Assembly (NCBI GenBank): GCA_964352015.1
Contig: CAYGPU010000002.1
Span: 46,419 to 110,418 of the forward strand
Reading direction: 5' to 3'
Source of the DNA: an uncultured Marinicella sp.
GTDB lineage: Bacteria > Pseudomonadota > Gammaproteobacteria > Xanthomonadales > Marinicellaceae
DNA length: 64,000 bases
The notes under the pieces are model-generated. The model searched no databases. It was not told the DNA's origin and saw nothing but the letters and a program-made list of their open reading frames with translations. Position 1 is the first letter of the stretch, and every line of letters begins with the position of its first letter. Below, in pieces: positions 47,926 to 60,923 of this stretch. The translations under genes and the position numbers were made by a program.

Positions 47926-48627
47926 TTACTTCCAACTACAAGCTGCAATCACCCCAATCAAGGCGCAATGGATTTTGGTGCCATATTTTGTGGTGAAGGT
48001 TTTGCTGATGGTGATTTTATCAAAGAATTTCTCAATGCTGCCATCCAGCCCTTCGGCATAAAATTTCATTTGTAGTTTGGGTTTATCCACCGACTCATCT
48101 AAGAAGGGTATATCTGCCAACCAATCCTGTATTTCTTGATTAGGGATGTAAAAATCTGTCGCAGGTCCAGTACGGGCTTGGAATTCAGCGGGAATATCAA
48201 CAGAAGTCCTTTTCTTGATCATCAATAACACATCTCCTGCACTGACGTCAGAAGGTGAGTTACGCAGGATTTCGACCGGTTGAGTTGATAATGGTTCTGT
48301 CCTTGGTGTTTCAACAGGTTCGGATTCAACAGGAGTGTCTTCAATCAAAGAAGGTGGTTGATTAGGTATTTCTACAGGTGATTCATCAATGGCTGGTTGC
48401 ACTGGGGGTTGAACGATCGGCATGCTGTCAGGCTTGTCATCAGCAATGAGTTGGGGTTCGATCAACTCCAATTCAATGACCTGAGTGGACGCAAACAAAT
48501 CCAAGCGCCAAGGCTTGGGTAACAACAAAAAAGCCACAATCAAAAACGCAGGAATAAAAGCATGTTTAATCCAGTGCTTAAGTTCAGTGTGGCTGTGCCA
48601 ATTAGTTTGGTTGGTTATGGTGTGCAA
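47926..48627 (-). CDS. Hypothetical single-TM protein with a Pro/Glu-rich linker
   Basis: TM near residues 22-37, proline-rich spacer, C-terminal TKYGTKIHC...CSW. Confidence 0.7.
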   Translation of the reverse strand: MHTITNQTNWHSHTELKHWIKHAFIPAFLIVAFLLLPKPWRLDLFASTQVIELELIEPQLIADDKPDSMPIVQPPVQPAIDESPVEIPNQPPSLIEDTPVESEPVETPRTEPLSTQPVEILRNSPSDVSAGDVLLMIKKRTSVDIPAEFQARTGPATDFYIPNQEIQDWLADIPFLDESVDKPKLQMKFYAEGLDGSIEKFFDKITISKTFTTKYGTKIHCALIGVIAACSWK

Positions 48628-51702: not shown

Positions 51703-52143
51703 ATGAAAACAATCGCGTGTCTTATTTTGCTGTGCCTCCTCAGTTTCCAAGTTGAAGCTGAAGCTGATGATGGTGTCAGTCTGAATGATGCGGTCAACCA
51801 GGTGAAGACCGAAGGCAGGGTGTTGTCTGCTAAAACCATCAATGGACGGCATGAAATCAAAATATTGACTCCCAACGGGACAGTTAAAACCATCAACAAA
51901 AAAGCGGCTAACCCGAATATAAAAATCAAACCTCCAAGACCAGAGTTCTACAACAACGGTGGACAGTCAATGCGTGATCGCAAACAGAATCCAGCGATTC
52001 CAGATCGTTTTAACCGCCAACAAAAAGTCATGAAGCTCAATCAGCGTCAACTGAATAGGAGCACATTGGATTTGCAGCCCATGACCAAAGACAGAAAAGC
52101 CAAGAGCAGAAAACCAAACAATAAAAAAGATAAAGACAATTAA
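51703..52143 (+). CDS. Secreted PepSY-like protein
   Basis: Signal peptide, SLNDAVNQV...GRVLSA...IKILTPNG; precedes a two-component pair. Confidence 0.7.
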   Translation: MKTIACLILLCLLSFQVEAEADDGVSLNDAVNQVKTEGRVLSAKTINGRHEIKILTPNGTVKTINKKAANPNIKIKPPRPEFYNNGGQSMRDRKQNPAIPDRFNRQQKVMKLNQRQLNRSTLDLQPMTKDRKAKSRKPNNKKDKDN

Positions 52144-54226: not shown

Positions 54227-54988
54227 ATGAAAAAACTTTTAGACATCATGCAAAAACTGCGTGACCCAGATTGCGGCTGTCCTTGGGATATAGAACAAAC
54301 ATTTTCCTCTGTAGCTCCTTATACCATTGAAGAGGCCTATGAAGTGGCTGATGCCATAGAGCAGCAAGACATGATTGGGCTGCAGTTAGAGCTCGGAGAC
54401 TTGTTGTTTCAAGTGGTTTTTCATGCGCAAATGGCCAATGAAGCAGGACATTTTGATTTCAATGATGTGGTCAACACAGTCAGTGATAAGATGATCAGCA
54501 GACATCCTCACGTGTTTGAACCCAACTCGCCGCGTTTAACAGCCGAACAACAGACTGTCGCATGGGAACAAGCTAAAAGTAAGGATAAAGACAGTGTGCT
54601 TGATGGGATAGCGAACAACCTACCTGAACTGCTCAAAGCGGTTAAGTTGACCAAATATGCAGCCGTTACTGGCTTTGACTGGCCAGAGGTCAGCCATGTA
54701 TTCGATAAATTGGATGAAGAAACTGCTGAACTTAAAGAAGCCATTGGCGAACAAAATGCTGAACACATTGAAGAGGAGTTGGGTGATTTATTGTTCGTAG
54801 TGGCTAATTTAGCCAGACACTTGAAAGTTGATCCTTCATCGGCATTGCGTAAAGCAAACCATAAATTTGAAAGGCGGTTCAGGGCTGTTGAAAAGTTAGC
54901 TAAGGCACGTCAGCCTAAAAAAGAAAACTTTGACCTGAAGGTTCTGGACGAACTCTGGAATCAGGTCAAAGTTGAACTCAAACAATAA
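54227..54988 (+). CDS. mazG: Nucleoside triphosphate pyrophosphohydrolase MazG
   Basis: GCPWD.EQT, EEAYEV, ELGDLLFQVVFH and a second MazG domain. Confidence 0.96.
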   Translation: MKKLLDIMQKLRDPDCGCPWDIEQTFSSVAPYTIEEAYEVADAIEQQDMIGLQLELGDLLFQVVFHAQMANEAGHFDFNDVVNTVSDKMISRHPHVFEPNSPRLTAEQQTVAWEQAKSKDKDSVLDGIANNLPELLKAVKLTKYAAVTGFDWPEVSHVFDKLDEETAELKEAIGEQNAEHIEEELGDLLFVVANLARHLKVDPSSALRKANHKFERRFRAVEKLAKARQPKKENFDLKVLDELWNQVKVELKQ

Positions 54989-55006
54989 AATGTATAATCA
55001 GAATGA

Positions 55007-55276
55007 AGTATGCCTAAAGTGTGTGTGTGTGAAAGACATACCATCTTCGTCAGTTAAGAATTAGGTATGCCTAAAGTGTGTGTGTGAAAGGCATACCATA
55101 TTCGTTACATTTTCAAGTTCTTATAATGAGCTTTAAATAAAATATCGCGGCTCTGGTTCGTTATTATTACTCCCTCTTCTTCTTGAATTGAAACAACTCA
55201 TAGGTTGTTCCTTCTTCAACAGTCATGTGACAAATAACTTCCATGTGTGTGTAGTGTGTAATGAAGTTATTTGTCA
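55007..55276 (-). ncRNA. Candidate structured 3'-trailer RNA: three stem-loops with CA-rich loops
   Basis: Hairpins at 55007-55042, 55064-55097 (9-bp stems, (CA)5-6 loops) and 55228-55276 (14-bp perfect stem, ACACACTACACACAC loop). Stem variants are G.U-compatible only on the minus strand. Confidence 0.45.
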
Positions 55277-55291
55277 TCATTGACATATGGT

Positions 55292-55993
55292 TTATTGACT
55301 TGATTCTGCAGCACAAGTCAATAATTGATCGTTAATGTAAATTTCTATATCAGCTAGATTGGTGTTTGCGTTCGCTGTGTTTTGAATGCCGAAAGCCAAA
55401 CCATTTTTACAATTTAATTCAAGCTGTATGGTGGTCGTTGTATTCACTTCTTGCTCGACGAGTAAGCCGCCACCAGTTCCTTCTCCAGTTGCATCAGTTG
55501 ATTCACCACCTGTACCTTCACCAGTTGCATCAGTTGATTCGCCACCTGTGCCTTCACCCGTAGCATCAGTTGACCCGCCACCTGTTCCTTCACCCGTAGC
55601 ATCAGTTGACCCACCACCTGTTCCTTCACCAGTGGCATTTGGAGTAGACAATTCAAGTAAGCTGTTTTTTGCAATCAATTCAATGTTTCCTTGAATGACG
55701 AAACCCTCGACAAAAACAGCTTCATTATTTAACGTATATATGCCTTTTACATATTGTTGATCGGTAGTATATAAACGGATTTCTGCAGCAAACAGGGTGG
55801 GTGCAAAAAGACTGAAAAGTAAAGAAATCATTAACAATCTGAACCTGTTCAACTGACTAATCCCTGTACCTTCAGTTTCGGCTGATCTAGAAATGCCTGT
55901 GCCTTCTGTTTCGGCTAGAGATTGAACCATGCAGGTTCCTTCGCTTTCCGCTATATGAGAGATACCAGTACCTTCAGTTTCTGCAAATTTCAT
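55292..55993 (-). CDS. Secreted protein with AETEGTG leader repeats and an ATGEGTGG[G/E]STD tandem array
   Basis: GGAG RBS upstream of ATG 55993; four leader motifs precede RFRLLMISLLFSLFAPTLFA|A; five internal units; two Cys in the C-terminal part. Confidence 0.85.
   Translation of the reverse strand: MKFAETEGTGISHIAESEGTCMVQSLAETEGTGISRSAETEGTGISQLNRFRLLMISLLFSLFAPTLFAAEIRLYTTDQQYVKGIYTLNNEAVFVEGFVIQGNIELIAKNSLLELSTPNATGEGTGGGSTDATGEGTGGGSTDATGEGTGGESTDATGEGTGGESTDATGEGTGGGLLVEQEVNTTTTIQLELNCKNGLAFGIQNTANANTNLADIEIYINDQLLTCAAESSQ
55466..55636. repeat. 36-bp coding tandem repeat (~4.75 units)
   Basis: Unit ccacctgt.ccttcacc.gt.gcatcagttga..c. on the + strand. Confidence 0.95.
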
Positions 55994-56025
55994 TTTATGC
56001 TCCAGATTTATTATTAAGTGTTATG

Positions 56026-56862
56026 TTATTCTTCAAAGTAAAACAGACCTAAACCAATTCTTGATTCATGTTTTGGTACCTGAATCGATTCATATTTTTT
56101 TTCAATGGCCTCAAACTCAGGATAAAAGGTGTTGTAATAATGATGTTTTAATAATTCATTCACTTCAATTCTGAATTGTTTTTTGTGTTCTTTAGGGATT
56201 TTTATAGAAAATAAATTACTTTGAAAGTTAGTGTCTTGCTCATGTTCAAAGTTATGTTCAATGGTATTGGTTATTCGGTTAATGGTGTTTGCTGCAACTT
56301 CTATTTTTGTTGGATTGGTTGAGCTTTTCGGAATGAATGTTCTGTTTATCAGATAAACTTTGTCGCCTCTGACTTCAACACACTTTGAAAGAATTAAAGC
56401 ATCTAAAACCGGACCGTGACTGATGTTTTTACCAAATTTCTGTGTCAAAGTTTCAAAAGAAAGGCCTTTGCCACTTCTTTTAAGGGGTACTGGTTTGCCC
56501 TTTTTTTCACAGAAAGGAGGGTGAGAGTACCAGTGATCTAAAATATTGCCTTCTCTGGAGCGATTCTGTTCAATCCAATCTATTTCAGTTGAGTTGCTTT
56601 TGAGTATTTTTGAAACCTCTCTTCGATCCAGTCCAGTCTGATAAGCAATCGATGAGATCTTTCCTCGACTGTTTTCCGATTGCTCGTTGATGTATTTTTC
56701 CGCTTCCTCAATAAACAGTTCTTTCACCAAGGAGTGGAATGAATTGAACTCAACCTTTTGTTTCACTAATATCCTTACCAATGGTTGCAAGCATGTTTTA
56801 ATAAAACCAAGCCAATAGACATTGAATGACAAGTTGTTAGTATTGGGTAATATTTGTTTCAT
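56026..56862 (-). CDS. DUF6502-like protein with an N-terminal HTH-like segment
   Basis: LQPLVRIL...F..LVKELFIEEA...ISSIAYQTGLDRREV...L..W...P...G.P..L...G...SFE.L... pattern. Family name is from memory. Confidence 0.72.
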   Translation of the reverse strand: MKQILPNTNNLSFNVYWLGFIKTCLQPLVRILVKQKVEFNSFHSLVKELFIEEAEKYINEQSENSRGKISSIAYQTGLDRREVSKILKSNSTEIDWIEQNRSREGNILDHWYSHPPFCEKKGKPVPLKRSGKGLSFETLTQKFGKNISHGPVLDALILSKCVEVRGDKVYLINRTFIPKSSTNPTKIEVAANTINRITNTIEHNFEHEQDTNFQSNLFSIKIPKEHKKQFRIEVNELLKHHYYNTFYPEFEAIEKKYESIQVPKHESRIGLGLFYFEE

Positions 56863-57569
56863 GATTCATATCCTTTATCAAAAAACCAACCTTGAAAGTT
56901 TTTATAGCCTTGTTTCAGGCCCAAATCAAAGTCTTTTTGAGTTTCCACACCTTCAAGTACGGTGTTGATGCCCATTGATGCGGCAAATTTTGCCAGCCCA
57001 TGGGTAAAAGATTCGGTGTTGTTGTTTCTCGAGAGGTTCTGATTGGCGACCTTAATCACATCAATCAGTCCCATTTGTAGTAATTCCCAGTGAGCAAACC
57101 CAGAGCCAAAATCATCTAAGGCCATCCAGCCACCTTTGGATCTGAAATATTGGAGTAATTCTATGGCACTTGAACCCAATGGTGGCATGGAATGAATTTC
57201 AACTATCTCTATACATATTGTGCTCGGATCAATCATTTGACTATCAATCATAGACCTTAAGTTTGTCCTGAATTCATGACTGAGTAGGCTGATTGGCATC
57301 AAATTAACACTCAAGCGATTGGGCTGCTTGGTCTCCAGTATGTGAGGCAGTTGATTGAATATATTTATATCCAAATCAACTTTTTGTTGTGATGTGAGTG
57401 ATTTAAAGAAATGCTCAACATTGATATGCCCAAGCAAGTGTTGTGGCCTGTAAAGCATTTCAATCCACCTTTGACTGTTCATGTCAGCACCCACTATATG
57501 CTGAAATTGGAATCCCAATTTCTGGCTGATAGTGGTTTTGAATGCTGCTAAATTCATAAACATGGTCAA
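56859..57569 (-). CDS. Stand-alone EAL-domain protein (putative c-di-GMP phosphodiesterase)
   Basis: EML (EAL), SVNL, EIVE, LDDFGSG, IKV, EGVET and QGWFF conserved; no GGDEF or sensor domain. Confidence 0.9.
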   Translation of the reverse strand: MTMFMNLAAFKTTISQKLGFQFQHIVGADMNSQRWIEMLYRPQHLLGHINVEHFFKSLTSQQKVDLDINIFNQLPHILETKQPNRLSVNLMPISLLSHEFRTNLRSMIDSQMIDPSTICIEIVEIHSMPPLGSSAIELLQYFRSKGGWMALDDFGSGFAHWELLQMGLIDVIKVANQNLSRNNNTESFTHGLAKFAASMGINTVLEGVETQKDFDLGLKQGYKNFQGWFFDKGYES

Positions 57570-57768
57570 GATTGAACAGGTTTATTATAGACTGACAAAT
57601 CTATGCCTGTAAACAGTTATGTGAAATAAATAATAAAATTTATGTTTTACGGGGCTTTTGCTTTGCTTGATGTGTTGTAATGAAGTGCGGCTGTGATTGC
57701 TTGAAAGTCAAGTATGGCTGGCGAATCGTGATGTTTAGGCAACCTTAATAACGGTGGTTGTTTGGTGT

Positions 57769-58209
57769 TTAGTTGGTTTGAGTTTGTAGGTAATCTACAA
57801 TTGATTGATTGGCTTCTGGTAGTTGGTATTGAGTTAAATCAGTTTTATTCACCCACTTCATGGCTTGATTTTCGGCGGCGCATACCTTTGGATCAGGGTT
57901 GATTTCGTGAAATACCAGTAATTCAACAGTCAAAGATGAATAGTCATGGTGGATTTGTAGAATTTGTTTGGGCGTTGTGATGGCGTAATTCAATTCTTCT
58001 ATTGATTCCCGCTTTAAAGCTTCGATGGCGGATTCGCCCATATCAATTTTGCCGCCAGGAAACTCCCAAAAACCTGCCAGGTGTTGGTGTTTTTTTCTTT
58101 GTGTTAATAAAATGTCGCCTTGGTTATTTTCTAACACCAAGACGACAACTTTTATAACCGATGAGCTGGATTCTTTAGCTGGGGTGTTCAGCTCAGGCGC
58201 CCGTGACAT
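57769..58209 (-). CDS. mutT: 8-oxo-dGTP diphosphatase (Nudix)
   Basis: [28 protein letters not shown] Nudix box, downstream of secA. Start is uncertain. Confidence 0.88.
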
Positions 58210-60923
58210 TGTTTGTATTTTTTGCCAGAGCCGCAAGGACATGGATCATTTCTGCCGACCTTTTCGCCGTCTCTGATAAAGGTTTCGACTTTTTCAGCTT
58301 CAGGTTGCTTGGACTGAGATGGAGATTGGTGTTGGAAAGTTACATTTTGTTCTTTTTTGTGTTCTAAGGCGCTGACATCTTGTTCCTCTTGAACTTTAAC
58401 TCGAGAAATGATTCGAGTGGTTTCATATTTAATCTTATCCAGCAGGTCTTTAAACATTTCAAAGGATTCACGTTTGTATTCTTGAATCGGCTGTTTTTGC
58501 GCATGTGAGCGAAGGCCTACACCTTGACGCAAATGATCCATTTGAGCCAAATGTTCTTTCCACAATTGATCAAGGGTGTTGAGGTAGGCGGCTTTTTCAA
58601 AATGGCGCATAACTTCACTGCCCGTCATGGCTTCTTTTTCTTTGAAGAAGCGATCAATGTGGTCATGAATTTTATCAGTTAAGCCATCATCATCAAGATC
58701 CTCATCACGTTCTAATATCCGTGATATGTTGATGTCAATGCCGAATTCAGTTGACAGAACACGTTCAAGTTGTGGTATTTGCCACTGTTCTTCAACACTT
58801 TCAAGCGGTACATGCTGACGAATTACATTTTCAAACACTTCTTCTCGGGTGTCTTCAATATAATCGCCAATTTCATTGGCTTCTAACAAGTCAGTTCGTT
58901 GTTGATAAATGACCATTCTTTGGTCGTTCGCTACATCATCGTATTCAAGTAATTGTTTGCGGATATCAAAGTTATGCGACTCTACCTTTCTTTGGGCGTT
59001 TTCAATGATGCGGGTGATCCACTTATGTTCAATGTATTCATCCTCTTTCATGCCGAAGCGTTTCATGTTATCCATCATTCGACTCTGGCCAAAAACGCGC
59101 ATCAAATTGTCTTCCAGTGAGATGTAGAAGCGCGATGACCCAGGATCACCTTGGCGTCCAGCTCGACCTCTTAACTGGTTGTCGATACGTCTTGATTCAT
59201 GCCTTTCAGTACCAATTATGCGCAGTCCACCGTTGTCTAAAACCATTTGATGACGGACTTTCCAATCGGCTTTCAATTGTTCTTTTTCAGCATCACTGAT
59301 TTGACCTTTGCCATCAATTTCAACCGCTAAATTACCACCCAATACAATGTCAGTACCGCGACCAGCCATGTTGGTAGCGATGGTGATGGCGCCTGGTAAA
59401 CCGGCTTCAGCAACTGTTAAGGCTTCCCGTTCGTGTTGTTTGGCGTTCAACACATTGTGTTTGATTTTTTGTTCTTTCAGTTTATTGGATAAAAACTCAG
59501 ACACTTCAATAGATGCGGTTCCAACCAGCACAGGTTGTTTGCGTTCATAACATTCTATAATGTCTTCAATGATGGCATCGAATTTAGCTTTTTGACTGAA
59601 GTAAACCAAATCTCCTGCATCTTCTCGAATCATCGGCTTGTGAGTTGGAATCACAATAACTTCTAATTTGTAAATGGTTTGAAATTCATAGGCTTCAGTA
59701 TCGGCAGTACCTGTCATTCCTGATAATTTAGGATACAGCCTGAAGTAGTTCTGAAATGTGATGGATGCCAGGGTTTGGTTTTCTTTTTGAATTGGAACAT
59801 TTTCTTTGGCTTCAACTGCTTGGTGTAATCCGTCTGACCAACGCCTGCCTTCCATGGTTCTGCCAGTGAATTCGTCAACAATCACAATCTCGCCTTGTTT
59901 GACAATGTAATCGACATCATTTTCGAATAAATGATGTGCTTTAAGCGCTGCACTGACATGGTGCATCAGTGAAATATGCTGTGAGTCATAGAGCGACTCA
60001 TCGGCTCCCATCAAGCCATTCTTTTTCAGCAGGTCTTCGGTGTTTTGCATACCTTGTTCTGTGAGAAAAATTTGTTTTGATTTTTCATCGACTGAGAAAT
60101 CACCATCAGGCTCGGGAATACTTTGTTTATTCAGTATGGCTTGACTGATTTCTTTCTGATCAGGTTCAGTGGTGGCACGTTGTAAAAGTGGAACTATTTT
60201 GTTGATGCGGTTATAAATGTCAGGTGATTCATCCACTTGTCCAGATATGATCAGTGGTGTTCGGGCTTCATCAATCAAAATTGAGTCAACCTCATCGATG
60301 ACTGCGAAAAATGGCTCGCGTTGTACTTTGGCGTCTAAGCTGAAAGCCATGTTGTCGCGCAAGAAATCAAAACCCAATTCATTGTTGGTTGCATAAGTGA
60401 TGTCACAGGCGTAAGCCGCACGCTTGGCTTCATGGGTTAAGTTGGGAACTACCACGCCCACACTCATGCCTAGGAAATTATACAAAGGCTCCATCCACTT
60501 GGCATCACGACTGGCTAAGTAGTCATTGACAGTTACAACATGAACACCCTCACCAGCCAAAGCATTGAGGTAAGCGGGTAGGGTACACATCAATGTTTTA
60601 CCTTCACCGGTTCTCATTTCAGCAATTTTTCCACGGTGCAACACAATGCCACCAATCAATTGAACATGGTAATGACGCATTTCCATGGTTCGTACCGAGG
60701 CTTCTCTGACCAAAGCAAATGCTTCAGGAAGTAGGTCATCAAGTTTTTCACCTTGAGCCAATCGGTCCTTGAAAGCTTGTGTTTGCAGAGGAAAGTCAGC
60801 ATCATCTAATGCTTGGTACTTAGGCTCTAAAGCTTCGATTTGATCGGCGATTTTATCAAGTTGTCGAATGTAACGTTGGTTTCTGCTGCCGAATACTTTG
60901 GTGAATAGTGAGTTTTTAGCCAT
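58188..60923 (-). CDS. secA: Protein translocase subunit SecA
   Basis: [37 protein letters not shown] and C-terminal [18 protein letters not shown]. Confidence 0.99.

What the first reader, a model, noticed from the sequence alone, without database searches (positions are those of the whole stretch)
55292..55993. Protein carrying the same EGTG motif on both sides of its signal peptide
Seen: nine EGT[G/C] motifs. Four lie in an acidic 46-aa leader before the signal peptide (AETEGTG x3, AESEGTC) and five in an ATGEGTGG[G/E]STD array inserted in the mature domain. The leader copies use different synonymous codons (e.g. GGT ACT GGT / GGC ACA GGC / GGT ACA GGG), so the peptide rather than the DNA appears selected. 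A good RBS supports the long start. Known: signal n-regions are normally short and basic, and repeated short motifs are hallmarks of multi-core RiPP precursors, PTM acceptor sites and arrest or recognition leaders. Inference: EGTG is a recognition or modification motif read in the cytoplasm (leader) and displayed or released outside (array).
Basis: partly seen in the sequence, partly recalled or inferred. Interest (0 to 1): 0.72.

Follow-up and report, generated by a model that had tools for sequence, protein, structure and literature searches.

The report
Secreted GTG-repeat protein with HetR-like regulator
A marine bacterium (Marinicella) makes an exported protein that carries the same short peptide motif both before and after its export signal, and it is always encoded next to a regulator whose predicted fold best matches HetR, the cyanobacterial regulator that is switched off by similar short peptides, so the pair may be a peptide-signalling system not described outside cyanobacteria.

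Summary
The ORF at window 55292..55993 (- strand, 233 aa) has four E[TS]EGT[GC] copies before a classical Sec-type signal peptide and five ATGEGTGG copies in a disordered loop of a small disulfide-containing beta domain.

- **Family:** 58 of 61 family representatives carry at least one motif copy before the signal peptide. These include a distant branch with a different flavour (IEKNGTG / IERDGTG leaders, xGNGTG arrays).
- **Selection:** the motif is the best-conserved part of the protein, and copies differ only at synonymous sites.
- **Neighbour:** every locus with enough flank also encodes a DUF6502 (PF20112) protein next door. This holds for Marinicella and for at least six unrelated metagenomic lineages (GC 33-52%).
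- **Fold:** the AlphaFold model of DUF6502 has HetR as its only full-length PDB match (Foldseek prob 0.97-0.99, TM about 0.4). No sequence-level homology is detectable.
- **Parallel:** HetR is inhibited by RG[ST]GR peptides, and PatX is a Sec-exported precursor of one of them.

My best reading is that xG[TS]Gx is the ligand motif of the adjacent HetR-like regulator, supplied from a PatX-like exported precursor. The copies before the signal peptide would give a cytoplasmic pool. This is inferred, not shown. No maturase, glycosyltransferase or arrest-peptide context is conserved. I found no literature on the family.

The parts
55292..55993 (-). Gene for the 233-aa xGTG-repeat preprotein: leader, signal peptide, then a split beta domain with an internal array
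   Evidence: Searches give the ORF. Searches give the homologues, and the alignments.
56000..56003 (-). Shine-Dalgarno GGAG, 6 nt before the ATG at 55993..55991
   Evidence: Read directly from the sequence.
55856..55993 (-). Acidic, disordered leader before the signal peptide (aa 1-46). It has three AETEGTGI copies (aa 4-11, 27-34, 38-45) and one degenerate AESEGTCM copy (aa 15-22).
   Evidence: AF2 gives pLDDT below 50 for residues 1-40. The motif columns are invariant in the family.
55787..55855 (-). Sec-type signal peptide core (aa 47-69): n-region LNRFR, h-region LLMISLLFSLFAPTLF, c-region F-A-A with predicted cleavage before E70
   Evidence: The hydrophobic maximum starts at aa 53, and the 8 residues before it carry a net charge of +2. 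AF2 predicts a helix at 48-61. An A-x-A-like site is conserved in the alignment. No SignalP-type tool was available, so cleavage is judged by rule.
55643..55786 (-). First half of the mature beta domain (aa 70-117, four strands; conserved LRLYS..YVKGIY...FVEG)
   Evidence: AF2 predicts strands 71-109 with pLDDT about 80-86. Conservation is shown.
55470..55638 (-). Array of five ATGEGTGG[G/E]STD units (36-nt tandem repeat), forming a disordered loop inserted in the beta domain
   Evidence: TRF result. AF2 pLDDT is below 50 for residues 112-184. A relative lacks one 36-nt unit (also P0002).
55295..55462 (-). Second half of the beta domain (aa 178-233, three strands) with the conserved Cys195/Cys227 pair
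   Evidence: AF2 predicts strands 187-220 with pLDDT 83-88. C227 is nearly invariant and the L[ND]C cysteine is conserved.
56026..56862 (-). DUF6502 (PF20112) protein, 278 aa. It has an HTH (ISSIAYQTGLDRREVSKILK), a predicted HetR-like fold, and is the proposed reader of the motif.
   Evidence: Pfam E 9e-28. AF2 pLDDT 79.9. The top four Foldseek hits are HetR. A DUF6502-type gene is adjacent to the xGTG gene in all loci examined.
56859..57569 (-). Stand-alone EAL-domain protein (probable c-di-GMP phosphodiesterase). It is the first gene of the operon in Marinicella and overlaps DUF6502 by 4 nt.
   Evidence: Pfam EAL E 4e-25 and NCBIfam phosphodiesterase hits. Synteny is shown.
57584..57613 (-). 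Sigma-70-type promoter TTTACA-18-TATAAT (11 of 12 matches) for the EAL-DUF6502-xGTG operon
   Evidence: One search finds the site. Both boxes are conserved across loci.
57558..57583 (-). 26-bp imperfect dyad AAACcTGtTCAA-tc-TTGAcCAtGTTT directly after the -10 box, inside a 36-nt block that is invariant or nearly so in 15 loci. It is a candidate operator.
   Evidence: Searches show 0-5 substitutions while the flanks are fully diverged. 20 of 26 positions are self-complementary, and random 26-mers reach this with frequency about 1.5e-4. The distant module L008 has a perfect dyad CCTGTACA-N4-TGTACAGG directly after its -10 box.

Best explanation
The gene encodes the exported partner of a two-gene regulatory module, and the x-G-[TS]-G-x motif is the recognition element of that module. 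The adjacent DUF6502 protein would be a cytoplasmic, dimeric HTH regulator with a HetR-like architecture: an N-terminal DNA-binding unit, a middle winged-helix or flap region, and a C-terminal alpha-beta-alpha-beta hood-like region. It probably binds the conserved dyad at the operon promoter.

By analogy with HetR and its RG[ST]GR peptides (PatS, HetN, and the Sec-exported PatX), short peptides carrying xGTGx would bind the regulator and change its DNA binding. The preprotein would supply these peptides from two pools.

1. **Array pool.** The array sits in a disordered, protease-accessible loop of a small disulfide-bonded beta domain. It is exported by Sec and can be cut outside the cytoplasm into diffusible peptides. 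This is the PatX-like route. The leaderless relatives P0016, L011, L019, P0121 and P0128 use it alone.
2. **Leader pool.** The leader copies sit N-terminal to the signal-peptide core, so they stay on the cytoplasmic face. After signal peptidase I cleavage and signal-peptide degradation they would be released inside the producer. This would give a cell-autonomous signal proportional to synthesis and export of the precursor, or it would tether or titrate the regulator at the membrane.

In Marinicella the operon also carries an EAL phosphodiesterase, so one output is probably the c-di-GMP level.

**Shown here:** the motif anatomy, peptide-level selection, the signal-peptide architecture, the strict gene pairing across lineages, the fold match, the conserved dyad, and co-transcription in an environmental relative.

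**Inferred:** binding of the motif to DUF6502, proteolytic release, re-uptake, and the direction of regulation.
For: 1. **Motif conservation and selection.** The motif is invariant while the rest of the protein diverges to about 30% identity. Third codon positions vary freely, and Ser even switches between AGY and TCN codons. Within the gene, copies differ only synonymously.
2. **Architecture.** It is conserved in 58 of 61 cluster representatives, including a distant branch with IE[KR]xGTG leaders and xG[NDHS]GTG arrays. The shared core is therefore x-G-T-G on both sides of the signal peptide.
3. **Gene pairing.** All 14 distinct Marinicella-type loci pair a DUF6502-type gene with an xGTG gene, as do L008, L011/L012, L019, L020, L022 and L024. 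L021 fits by alignment of a truncated C-terminal ORF only, with no Pfam hit. GC ranges from 0.33 to 0.52.
4. **Fold.** The DUF6502 AF2 model (pLDDT 79.9) has HetR as its four best PDB hits. These are the only full-length alignments (312-318 columns, prob 0.91-0.99, E 5e-3 to 3e-2). The helix order, two long helices then an HTH at about residues 68-89, matches the HetR DNA-binding domain with its HTH at about 59-88 (PMC4649674). The C-terminus has the alpha-beta-alpha-beta order of the hood.
5. **Known biology of HetR.** It is inhibited by ERGSGR or HRGTGR peptides that add a beta strand to the hood (PMC4649674). PatX is a Sec-exported precursor that must be exported and cleaved (PMC12756182). 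The central G-[ST]-G is shared.
6. **Operator.** A conserved 26-bp dyad lies directly after the -10 box. A related perfect dyad occupies the same position in the distant module L008.
7. **Co-transcription.** RNA contigs span the DUF6502/xGTG junction.
8. **Export.** A conserved Cys pair and an A-x-A site support export of the mature domain.
Against: - **No sequence homology to HetR.** hhalign gives E 0.15 and probability 0.4. No DUF6502 member hits Pfam Peptidase_S48 or HetR_C.
- **Weak structural scores.** Foldseek TM-scores are only 0.38-0.42 with rmsd about 10 A. The fold match could reflect convergent helix and winged-helix packing.
- **Different motif chemistry.** Here the flanks are acidic or neutral (E-x-E-GTG-I), not the two arginines that HetR recognises. 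Only G-[ST]-G is shared.
- **No binding evidence.** No experiment and no co-folding was possible.
- **Missing components.** No peptidase or peptide importer is conserved in the module.
- **Limited independence.** All Marinicella loci share one synteny, so they count as roughly one observation of linkage. The independent support comes from about six short metagenomic contigs.
- **Motif flavours differ.** Leader (E-x-E-G-T-[GD]-I) and array ([DG]-[EDN]-G-T-G-G) are systematically different, which might mean two different readers.
Confidence: 0.5

Rival explanations
1. The motif is an acceptor site for a post-translational modification on Thr, such as O-glycosylation, phosphorylation or AMPylation. 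The enzyme would act in the cytoplasm before export, so copies on both sides of the signal peptide are modified. DUF6502 would only regulate transcription.
For: - A strictly conserved Thr sits between glycines in disordered segments.
- Cytoplasmic glycosylation before export is established for some autotransporters (general knowledge).
- One locus, L008, has a GT2 glycosyltransferase fragment divergently upstream.
Against: - No transferase or kinase is conserved next to the module in any other locus.
- M. rhabdoformis arrays have GSG and GPG in place of GTG.
- This reading does not explain why the only conserved partner is an HTH protein.
Confidence: 0.12
2. The array is a structural low-complexity element of a periplasmic or surface protein, for example a flexible linker, a Ca2+- or metal-binding loop, or a curli-like adhesive repeat. 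The leader would be a secretion-tuning extension that delays targeting, prevents folding or aggregation, or recruits a chaperone. The shared motif would reflect intragenic duplication.
For: - The array is Gly/Asp/Thr-rich and predicted to be disordered.
- Copy number varies from 1 to 14 and is polymorphic.
- Distant members show weak similarity to CsgB/CsgA, E 0.003-0.1.
- The window comes from a biofilm metagenome.
Against: - The leader motif is more conserved than the folded domain. It is kept by purifying selection at the peptide level in lineages where the DNA copies have long diverged.
- A linker or anti-aggregation tail would not need an invariant E-x-E-G-T-G-I.
- Minimal relatives consist of little more than a signal peptide plus motif copies (P0016; the 51-aa L011 peptide). 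That is hard to reconcile with a structural role.
- Linkage to a regulator is strict.
Confidence: 0.15
3. The leader plus signal anchor acts as a membrane tether that sequesters the DUF6502 regulator, in the manner of an anti-sigma factor. Regulated proteolysis of the uncleaved or cleaved signal peptide would release the regulator. In this reading the array has a separate extracellular role.
For: - The same pairing and topology evidence as for the main model applies.
- Multiple leader copies (1-6) would give avidity for a dimeric regulator.
Against: - Leaderless modules exist (P0016, L011, L019) and still keep the motif after the signal peptide.
- A conserved A-x-A site suggests the signal peptide is cleaved and short-lived.
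Confidence: 0.1
4. The protein is a multi-core RiPP precursor or a translational-arrest (secretion-monitor) leader.
For: - It has repeated short identical peptides.
- It lies near secA in Marinicella.
Against: - No maturase, RRE, YcaO, radical-SAM or protease-transporter gene is conserved in any locus.
- The gene lies downstream of secA in a separate operon with its own promoter and is the last gene, whereas known monitors precede the gene they control.
- Non-Marinicella modules are not near sec genes.
- The motif lies at the extreme N-terminus, not where a nascent chain would stall while its signal peptide engages Sec.
Confidence: 0.05

Closest known systems
HetR with PatX (also PatS and HetN) of filamentous cyanobacteria
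   Same: - A roughly 280-300-aa regulator with an N-terminal HTH unit, for which HetR is the only full-length structural match.
- A genetically linked small precursor with a Sec signal peptide.
- A short motif built around G-[ST]-G (RGSGR or RGTGR there; [ED]GTG[IG] here).
- For PatX, export and proteolysis are required (PMC12756182), and the peptide binds the HetR hood by beta-strand addition and releases DNA (PMC4649674).
- The leaderless relatives (signal peptide plus motif only) look like PatX in layout.
   Different: - No sequence homology to HetR.
- The motif flanks are acidic or neutral rather than Arg.
- There are many motif copies (1-14) instead of one C-terminal copy.
- The array is embedded in a folded beta domain.
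- Motif copies also sit before the signal peptide, which has no counterpart in PatX, PatS or HetN.
- The hosts are non-photosynthetic Gammaproteobacteria and unknown lineages that are not known to be filamentous.
- In Marinicella the module is linked to an EAL protein.
- The literature describes patX-hetR as confined to filamentous cyanobacteria (PMC12756182).
Enterococcal sex pheromones (cAD1, cCF10), cut out of lipoprotein signal peptides and sensed by cytoplasmic HTH regulators (general knowledge)
   Same: - The signalling information is carried in the signal-peptide portion of a secreted preprotein.
- It is released by signal-peptide processing.
- It is read by a cytoplasmic DNA-binding receptor.
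   Different: - There the pheromone is the hydrophobic core, it is exported, and the receptor belongs to the RRNPP family.
- Here the motif is a hydrophilic N-terminal extension expected to stay in the cytoplasm, and the partner has a different fold.
Multi-copy Phr/RRNPP propeptides of Firmicutes (general knowledge)
   Same: A Sec-exported precursor is encoded beside its cytoplasmic receptor, and some precursors carry several copies of the mature peptide.
   Different: The receptors are TPR proteins, the hosts are Gram-positive, and no motif copies precede the signal peptide.
Extended signal peptide region (ESPR) of autotransporters and TPS proteins (general knowledge)
   Same: A conserved N-terminal extension precedes an otherwise classical signal peptide.
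   Different: The ESPR is a single, different motif of about 25 aa on very large passenger proteins. It is not repeated, not acidic, and not echoed in the mature protein.

Membership tests
HetR/PatX-type regulator and inhibitor-peptide module | The regulator belongs to the HetR family by sequence (Pfam Peptidase_S48 PF03574 plus HetR_C PF18460) | tested here: not met
   HetR itself hits both families. None of 21 DUF6502 members does, even at E up to 10. hhalign of the DUF6502 profile against HetR gives E 0.15 and probability 0.4.
HetR/PatX-type regulator and inhibitor-peptide module | The regulator has the HetR three-domain fold (DNA-binding domain, flap, hood) | tested here: inconclusive
   The four best Foldseek hits are HetR chains with full-length alignments (prob 0.91-0.99, E 5e-3 to 3e-2). 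However, TM is only 0.38-0.42 and rmsd about 10 A. The model is a monomer, whereas HetR is an intertwined dimer.
HetR/PatX-type regulator and inhibitor-peptide module | The partner peptide carries RG[ST]GR | tested here: not met
   The motifs are [AS]E[TS]EGT[GD][ILM], IE[KR]xGTG and x[DG][EDNSH]GTG[GN]. Only the central G-[TS]-G is shared.
HetR/PatX-type regulator and inhibitor-peptide module | The precursor has a Sec signal peptide (PatX) and is genetically linked to the regulator | tested here: met
   A basic n-region, a hydrophobic core and an A-x-A site are found in the family. The gene is adjacent to DUF6502 in every locus examined.
HetR/PatX-type regulator and inhibitor-peptide module | The peptide binds the regulator and abolishes DNA binding | not testable with these tools
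   This needs ITC or EMSA, or multimer co-folding.
DUF6502 (PF20112), for the neighbouring gene | Pfam HMM match above the gathering threshold | tested here: met
   97.3 bits against a cut-off of 27, E 9e-28. Distant partners also match: L020 at 1.5e-15, L022 at 1.1e-18 and L024 at 3e-13.
Sec (SPase I) signal peptide | A positively charged n-region, a 10-15-residue hydrophobic core, and small residues at positions -3 and -1 | tested here: met
   Window protein: RFR, then LLMISLLFSLFAPTLF, then F-A-A|E. The 8 residues before the core carry a net charge of about +2 across 58 members. AF2 predicts a helix at 48-61. No dedicated predictor was available.
Multi-core RiPP precursor | A co-localised maturase or RRE-containing enzyme, and a protease or exporter | tested here: not met
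   No such gene appears in any neighbourhood. The only conserved neighbour is DUF6502.
Secretion-monitor arrest peptides (SecM, VemP, MifM) | Encoded upstream of the Sec/YidC gene it regulates and co-transcribed with it, with a C-proximal arrest motif | tested here: not met
   The gene is last in a separate operon downstream of secA-mutT. Modules in other lineages are not near sec genes.
Autotransporter/TPS extended signal peptide region | The conserved ESPR motif together with a large passenger and a beta-barrel or TpsB partner | tested here: not met
   Neither Pfam nor NCBIfam gives a hit. The protein is only 233 aa.

The most novel reading that the evidence does not exclude
A previously unrecognised, HetR/PatX-like peptide-signalling module exists outside cyanobacteria, in Marinicella and several unidentified lineages. 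One preprotein delivers the same ligand motif to both sides of the membrane. Copies before the signal peptide are released into the producer's cytoplasm as a by-product of export, giving a self signal. Array copies are released outside, giving a diffusible non-self signal. Both are read by one HetR-like regulator that controls c-di-GMP turnover. This would give HetR an evolutionary relative outside cyanobacteria. It would also be, to my knowledge, a new use of the n-region of a signal peptide as an information carrier.
Probability: 0.3. Interest if true: 0.9.

Novelty: new variant of a known kind. Interest (0 to 1): 0.78.

Why it matters
- **Origin of HetR/PatX.** HetR and its RG[ST]GR peptides are the textbook bacterial activator-inhibitor patterning system. 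The patX-hetR module is described as confined to filamentous cyanobacteria (PMC12756182). A structurally related regulator paired with a Sec-exported G-[ST]-G peptide precursor in heterotrophic marine Gammaproteobacteria would bear on where that system came from. It would also offer a simpler setting in which to study it.
- **Peptide signalling in Gram-negative bacteria.** Sec-exported peptide signals read by cytoplasmic receptors are rare in Gram-negative bacteria.
- **Signal-peptide n-region as a carrier.** A conserved, repeated, acidic motif N-terminal to a signal peptide contradicts the usual short basic n-region. It suggests that the discarded signal peptide can carry a message.
- **A testable hypothesis for DUF6502.** The family has no function and I found no literature on it. 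This work proposes a ligand, an operator and a partner gene.

Tried and rejected
**Searches that gave nothing.**
- Pfam and NCBIfam on the target protein returned only noise (TrAA12 at E 0.06, CsgB at E 0.003 on distant members).
- Rfam on 54900-58400 returned no hit, so the conserved leader is not a known RNA element.
- Foldseek of the target's own model gave only insignificant avidin- or FABP-like small beta-barrel matches (E at least 0.3).
- PDB sequence searches with DUF6502 and with its profile found nothing meaningful.
- Full-text searches for DUF6502, PF20112, ETEGTG, SESEGTG, IEKNGTG and HetR-like proteins outside cyanobacteria found nothing relevant.

**Searches with limited yield.**
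- The leader-only profile search returned just 3 proteins and, oddly, not the known family, probably because of bias filtering. It did yield the key hit P0016.
- The genome-contig scan found only Marinicella and one gammaproteobacterial MAG. The other 29 pattern matches were unconfirmed and could not be inspected.

**Links and hits rejected.**
- A sequence-level link between DUF6502 and HetR was not found. hhalign gave E 0.15, although its best local alignment is collinear with the hood. No DUF6502 member matched a HetR Pfam family.
- Several hits from the representative search are unrelated low-complexity or eukaryotic proteins: P0093, P0117, P0122, P0126, P0127, P0129-P0134, P0136, P0138-P0140.
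- An alternative downstream start was rejected. Many homologues have no conserved Met before the hydrophobic core, and the leader is conserved at the peptide level.
- An N-out signal-anchor topology was rejected. The basic residues lie on the N-terminal side of the hydrophobic core, an A-x-A site follows it, and the C-terminal domain has a conserved Cys pair.
- The secA neighbourhood was rejected as functional linkage. It is seen only in Marinicella, and the module has its own promoter.
Full report
**1. The observation**

The ORF at window 55292..55993 (- strand) encodes a 233-aa protein. Its parts, in order, are:
- **Leader.** MKF, then AETEGTGI, AESEGTCM, AETEGTGI and AETEGTGI spaced 11-12 residues apart (aa 1-46).
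- **Signal peptide.** LNRFR, a 16-residue hydrophobic core, and F-A-A|E.
- **Mature part.** It contains five ATGEGTGG[G/E]STD units, which match a 36-nt tandem array at 55470-55638.

In a six-frame scan of the 64-kb window, EGTG occurs only in this ORF. The three perfect leader copies differ from one another at 3-6 of 8 codons, all synonymous. The array motifs differ at 1-5 codons, all synonymous. A GGAG lies 6 nt before the ATG.

**2. The long start is real**

- In seven related loci an in-frame stop lies 6-16 codons upstream of M1, and the motif starts 2-3 residues after M1.
- Many homologues have no Met between the leader and the hydrophobic core.
- The leader is conserved as a peptide while third codon positions vary freely (GGT/GGA/GGC, ACT/ACC/ACA). 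Ser even switches between AGY and TCN codons at the same motif position.
- Metatranscriptome contigs from a roughly 92%-identical relative run without a break from the upstream gene through the leader. They come from oligo-dT libraries, and DNA carry-over cannot be excluded.

**3. The family**

The word-indexed search found 15 clusters. A profile search of 1.84 billion representatives found 68 hits, 46 of them at E up to 1e-10. After I removed obvious low-complexity and eukaryotic hits, 61 representatives remained.
- 58 of the 61 have at least one motif copy before the hydrophobic core. Leaders are 13-60 aa long with 1-6 copies, and arrays have 1-14 copies.
- In the family alignment the leader motif residues are invariant while mean column identity is about 40%.
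- A distant branch keeps the architecture with another flavour: leaders IERDGTG, IEKNGTG or IEKSGTG, and arrays EVNGDGTG, AEGNGTG, VTGNGTG, AEGHGTG or SYGSGTG. The common core is x-G-T-G on both sides of a signal peptide.
- Three small relatives have only a signal peptide followed by motif copies between two cysteines (P0016, P0121, P0128).

**4. Structure of the protein**

AlphaFold (14-sequence alignment, mean pLDDT 58) gives the following picture:
- The leader is disordered.
- The signal peptide forms a helix (residues 48-61).
- Four strands span residues 71-109 and three strands span 187-220, with pLDDT about 80-88.
- The array (112-184) is a disordered loop inserted between the two strand groups.

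Cys195 and Cys227 are conserved, which fits an exported, disulfide-bonded domain. Foldseek finds only insignificant small-barrel matches. Basic residues precede the hydrophobic core and an A-x-A site follows it in the family. The topology is therefore N-terminus inside, mature domain outside, with cleavage by signal peptidase I. This is inferred by rule, since no predictor was available.

**5. The neighbourhood**

In the window the gene is last in an apparent operon: EAL (56859..57569), DUF6502 (56026..56862, overlapping EAL by 4 nt), then the xGTG gene after a 32-nt gap. A strong promoter-like site, TTTACA-18-TATAAT, lies just upstream of EAL.

All Marinicella-type loci share the synteny M23 peptidase - secA - mutT - EAL - DUF6502 - xGTG, with mazG and a PhoPQ-like pair on the other strand. 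M. litoralis and M. rhabdoformis also have the protein, although the first search had missed both.

On its own this synteny counts as about one observation. The leader-only profile search found P0016, on a 2-kb metagenomic contig. The protein encoded beside it aligns over its full length with the window's DUF6502 (23% identity, pairwise E 2e-8). Further independent cases followed.
- The one distant DUF6502 in the database (P0080, 29% identity, in a different genomic context with RelB/ParE) is followed by a 51-aa peptide, MRKVIMFGFAALVLISTTAIA|SDTEGTGGES....
- All seven metagenomic DUF6502 relatives have an xGTG protein immediately downstream. One of them (L019) is a leaderless form with five PIGGDGTGA units.
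- In the IE[KR]xGTG branch, DUF6502 is adjacent in L020, L022 and L024, where it lies on both sides. It is probably adjacent in L021 and L023 as well.

GC content ranges from 0.33 to 0.52. The pairing therefore holds in every locus I could inspect, across several lineages.

**6. What DUF6502 looks like**

It has no signal peptide and carries an evident HTH, ISSIAYQTGLDRREVSKILK, with G77, D79, R80 and R81 invariant. The AlphaFold model from a 31-sequence alignment has pLDDT 79.9. Its four best Foldseek PDB hits are all HetR (4hri, 4yrv, 4izz), with probability 0.91-0.99, E 5e-3 to 3e-2 and 312-318 aligned columns. All later hits are partial winged-helix matches to CRP/FNR-type proteins.

The order of elements also fits the HetR description in PMC4649674.
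- Two long helices are followed by an HTH at about residues 68-89. In HetR the HTH lies at about 59-88.
- A mixed alpha/beta middle region follows.
- The C-terminal part has alpha-beta-alpha-beta order. Its two putative strands (NFQRNLYSIxIP and GLGxFYF) are the conserved segments, and they are coil in the monomer model. That is expected if they pair only in an intertwined dimer.

There are clear limits to this match.
- TM-scores are only 0.38-0.42.
- hhalign of DUF6502 against HetR is not significant (E 0.15), although its best local alignment is collinear with the hood.
- No DUF6502 member hits the HetR Pfam families.

I therefore treat the HetR-like fold as probable, and homology as unproven.

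**7. Why the HetR parallel matters**

HetR is inhibited by peptides built around RG[ST]GR.
- ERGSGR binds the hood domain by beta-strand addition and releases HetR from DNA (PMC4649674).
- PatX, the most ancient partner, has a Sec signal peptide, must be exported, is cut by the periplasmic peptidase PatP, and yields HRGTGR, which binds HetR (PMC12756182).

The present module has four matching features: a regulator whose only full-length structural match is HetR, an adjacent Sec-exported precursor, a motif with the same G-[ST]-G centre, and minimal members that consist of a signal peptide plus the motif. The same paper describes the patX-hetR module as found only in filamentous cyanobacterial clades. 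My searches found no report of a relative elsewhere.

**8. A candidate operator**

The 36 nt ATAATAAACCTGTTCAATCTTGACCATGTTTATGAA run from the -10 box into the first EAL codons. This block shows 0-5 substitutions in 15 loci whose promoter spacers are completely diverged. It contains a 26-bp imperfect dyad with 20 of 26 positions self-complementary. About 1.5e-4 of random 26-mers of the same composition reach that level. In the unrelated module L008 a perfect dyad, CCTGTACA-N4-TGTACAGG, sits directly after a TAGAAT -10 box and has a similar half-site. This fits autoregulation by a dimeric HTH protein. It is suggestive rather than conclusive.

**9. Mechanism proposed**

The xGTGx motif would be the ligand of the DUF6502 regulator.
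- **Array route.** The exported array, a disordered loop in a small stable domain, would be cut outside the cytoplasm into diffusible peptides. This is the PatX-like route, and the leaderless relatives use it alone.
- **Leader route.** The leader copies are part of the signal peptide's N-terminal region, so they remain cytoplasmic. After signal peptidase cleavage, signal-peptide degradation (SppA and RseP in E. coli, general knowledge) would release them inside the producer. Alternatively they would hold the regulator at the membrane while the precursor awaits export.

The leader flavour (E-x-E-G-T-[GD]-[ILM]) and the array flavour ([DG]-[EDN]-G-T-G-[GN]) differ consistently, so the two pools may act differently, for example as agonist versus competitor or immunity. 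In Marinicella the co-transcribed EAL protein has all the usual catalytic residues by inspection (E in the EML variant of the EAL motif, N, ExxE, DD, K, E, Q). This suggests c-di-GMP turnover as one output. Ligand binding, proteolysis, uptake and the sign of regulation are all inferences.

**10. Rivals**

- **Thr-modification acceptor.** This cannot be excluded, but no transferase is conserved, and some arrays have GSG or GPG.
- **Purely structural repeat with a secretion-tuning leader.** This does not explain an invariant motif under peptide-level selection, the minimal peptide-only relatives, or the strict pairing with an HTH protein.
- **RiPP or arrest-peptide readings.** These lack every contextual hallmark.
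- **Membrane-tether model.** This is a variant of the main model.

**11. Verdict**

The finding is real and is not an artefact. The family and its partner are uncharacterised. The best reading is a new variant of the HetR/PatX kind of regulator and peptide module, with a new twist: copies of the ligand motif ahead of the signal peptide. My confidence is about 0.5 that the motif is read by DUF6502, and about 0.3 for the full two-pool signalling picture.

Noticed in passing
window 57553..57588 (- strand); also L001-L018 at the equivalent position: A 36-nt block running from the -10 box into the first codons of the EAL gene has 0-5 substitutions in 15 loci whose surrounding promoter sequence is fully diverged. 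It contains a 26-bp imperfect dyad (half-site AAACNTGNTCAA). The distant module L008 has the perfect dyad CCTGTACA-N4-TGTACAGG at L008:618-637 in the same position relative to its -10 box.
   Followed up: partly
window 55000..55105: A 55-nt tandem repeat (1.9 copies, 88% matches) lies in the intergenic region between mazG and the 3' end of the xGTG gene. RNA and metagenome contigs of relatives differ here: one skips 73 nt, and others carry a GTGTGT insertion at 55075.
   Followed up: no
window 55505..55542: Array copy-number polymorphism. Contigs of a roughly 92%-identical relative lack exactly one 36-nt unit, and P0002 has 4 units instead of 5.
   Followed up: partly
window 55386..55694 (+ strand): A 102-aa ORF with PPVPSPVASVD repeats is simply the antisense reading of the array. 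I do not consider it a gene.
   Followed up: yes
window 56859..57569 (- strand): The stand-alone EAL protein has DDFGSG (canonical DDFGTG) in its loop-6 motif. This superficially resembles the array motif of some relatives (SDDGTGG). It is probably a coincidence, but the two proteins are co-transcribed.
   Followed up: no
L024:1-672, 744-1589, 1799-2629: In one metagenomic contig the xGTG gene (P0125) is flanked by two DUF6502 genes, one on each side.
   Followed up: no
L011:298-830 and L022:7644-8223: Non-Marinicella modules lie near RelB/ParE or ParD/ParE toxin-antitoxin pairs and small HTH genes. This hints that the module may sit on mobile or accessory DNA in those lineages.
   Followed up: no
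window 47926..48627 (- strand) and 51703..52143 (+ strand): Two ORFs (233 aa and 146 aa) have positional counterparts of similar length, without any Pfam hit, in the syntenic Marinicella loci L001 and L002. They are uncharacterised.
   Followed up: no
window 57769..58242 / 58188..60923 (- strand): By length and synteny with L001 and L002, these ORFs are mutT (NUDIX) and secA. The listed mutT ORF (first possible start) would overlap the secA 3' end by about 55 nt. The called mutT genes in L001 and L002 overlap secA by 22 nt.
   Followed up: no
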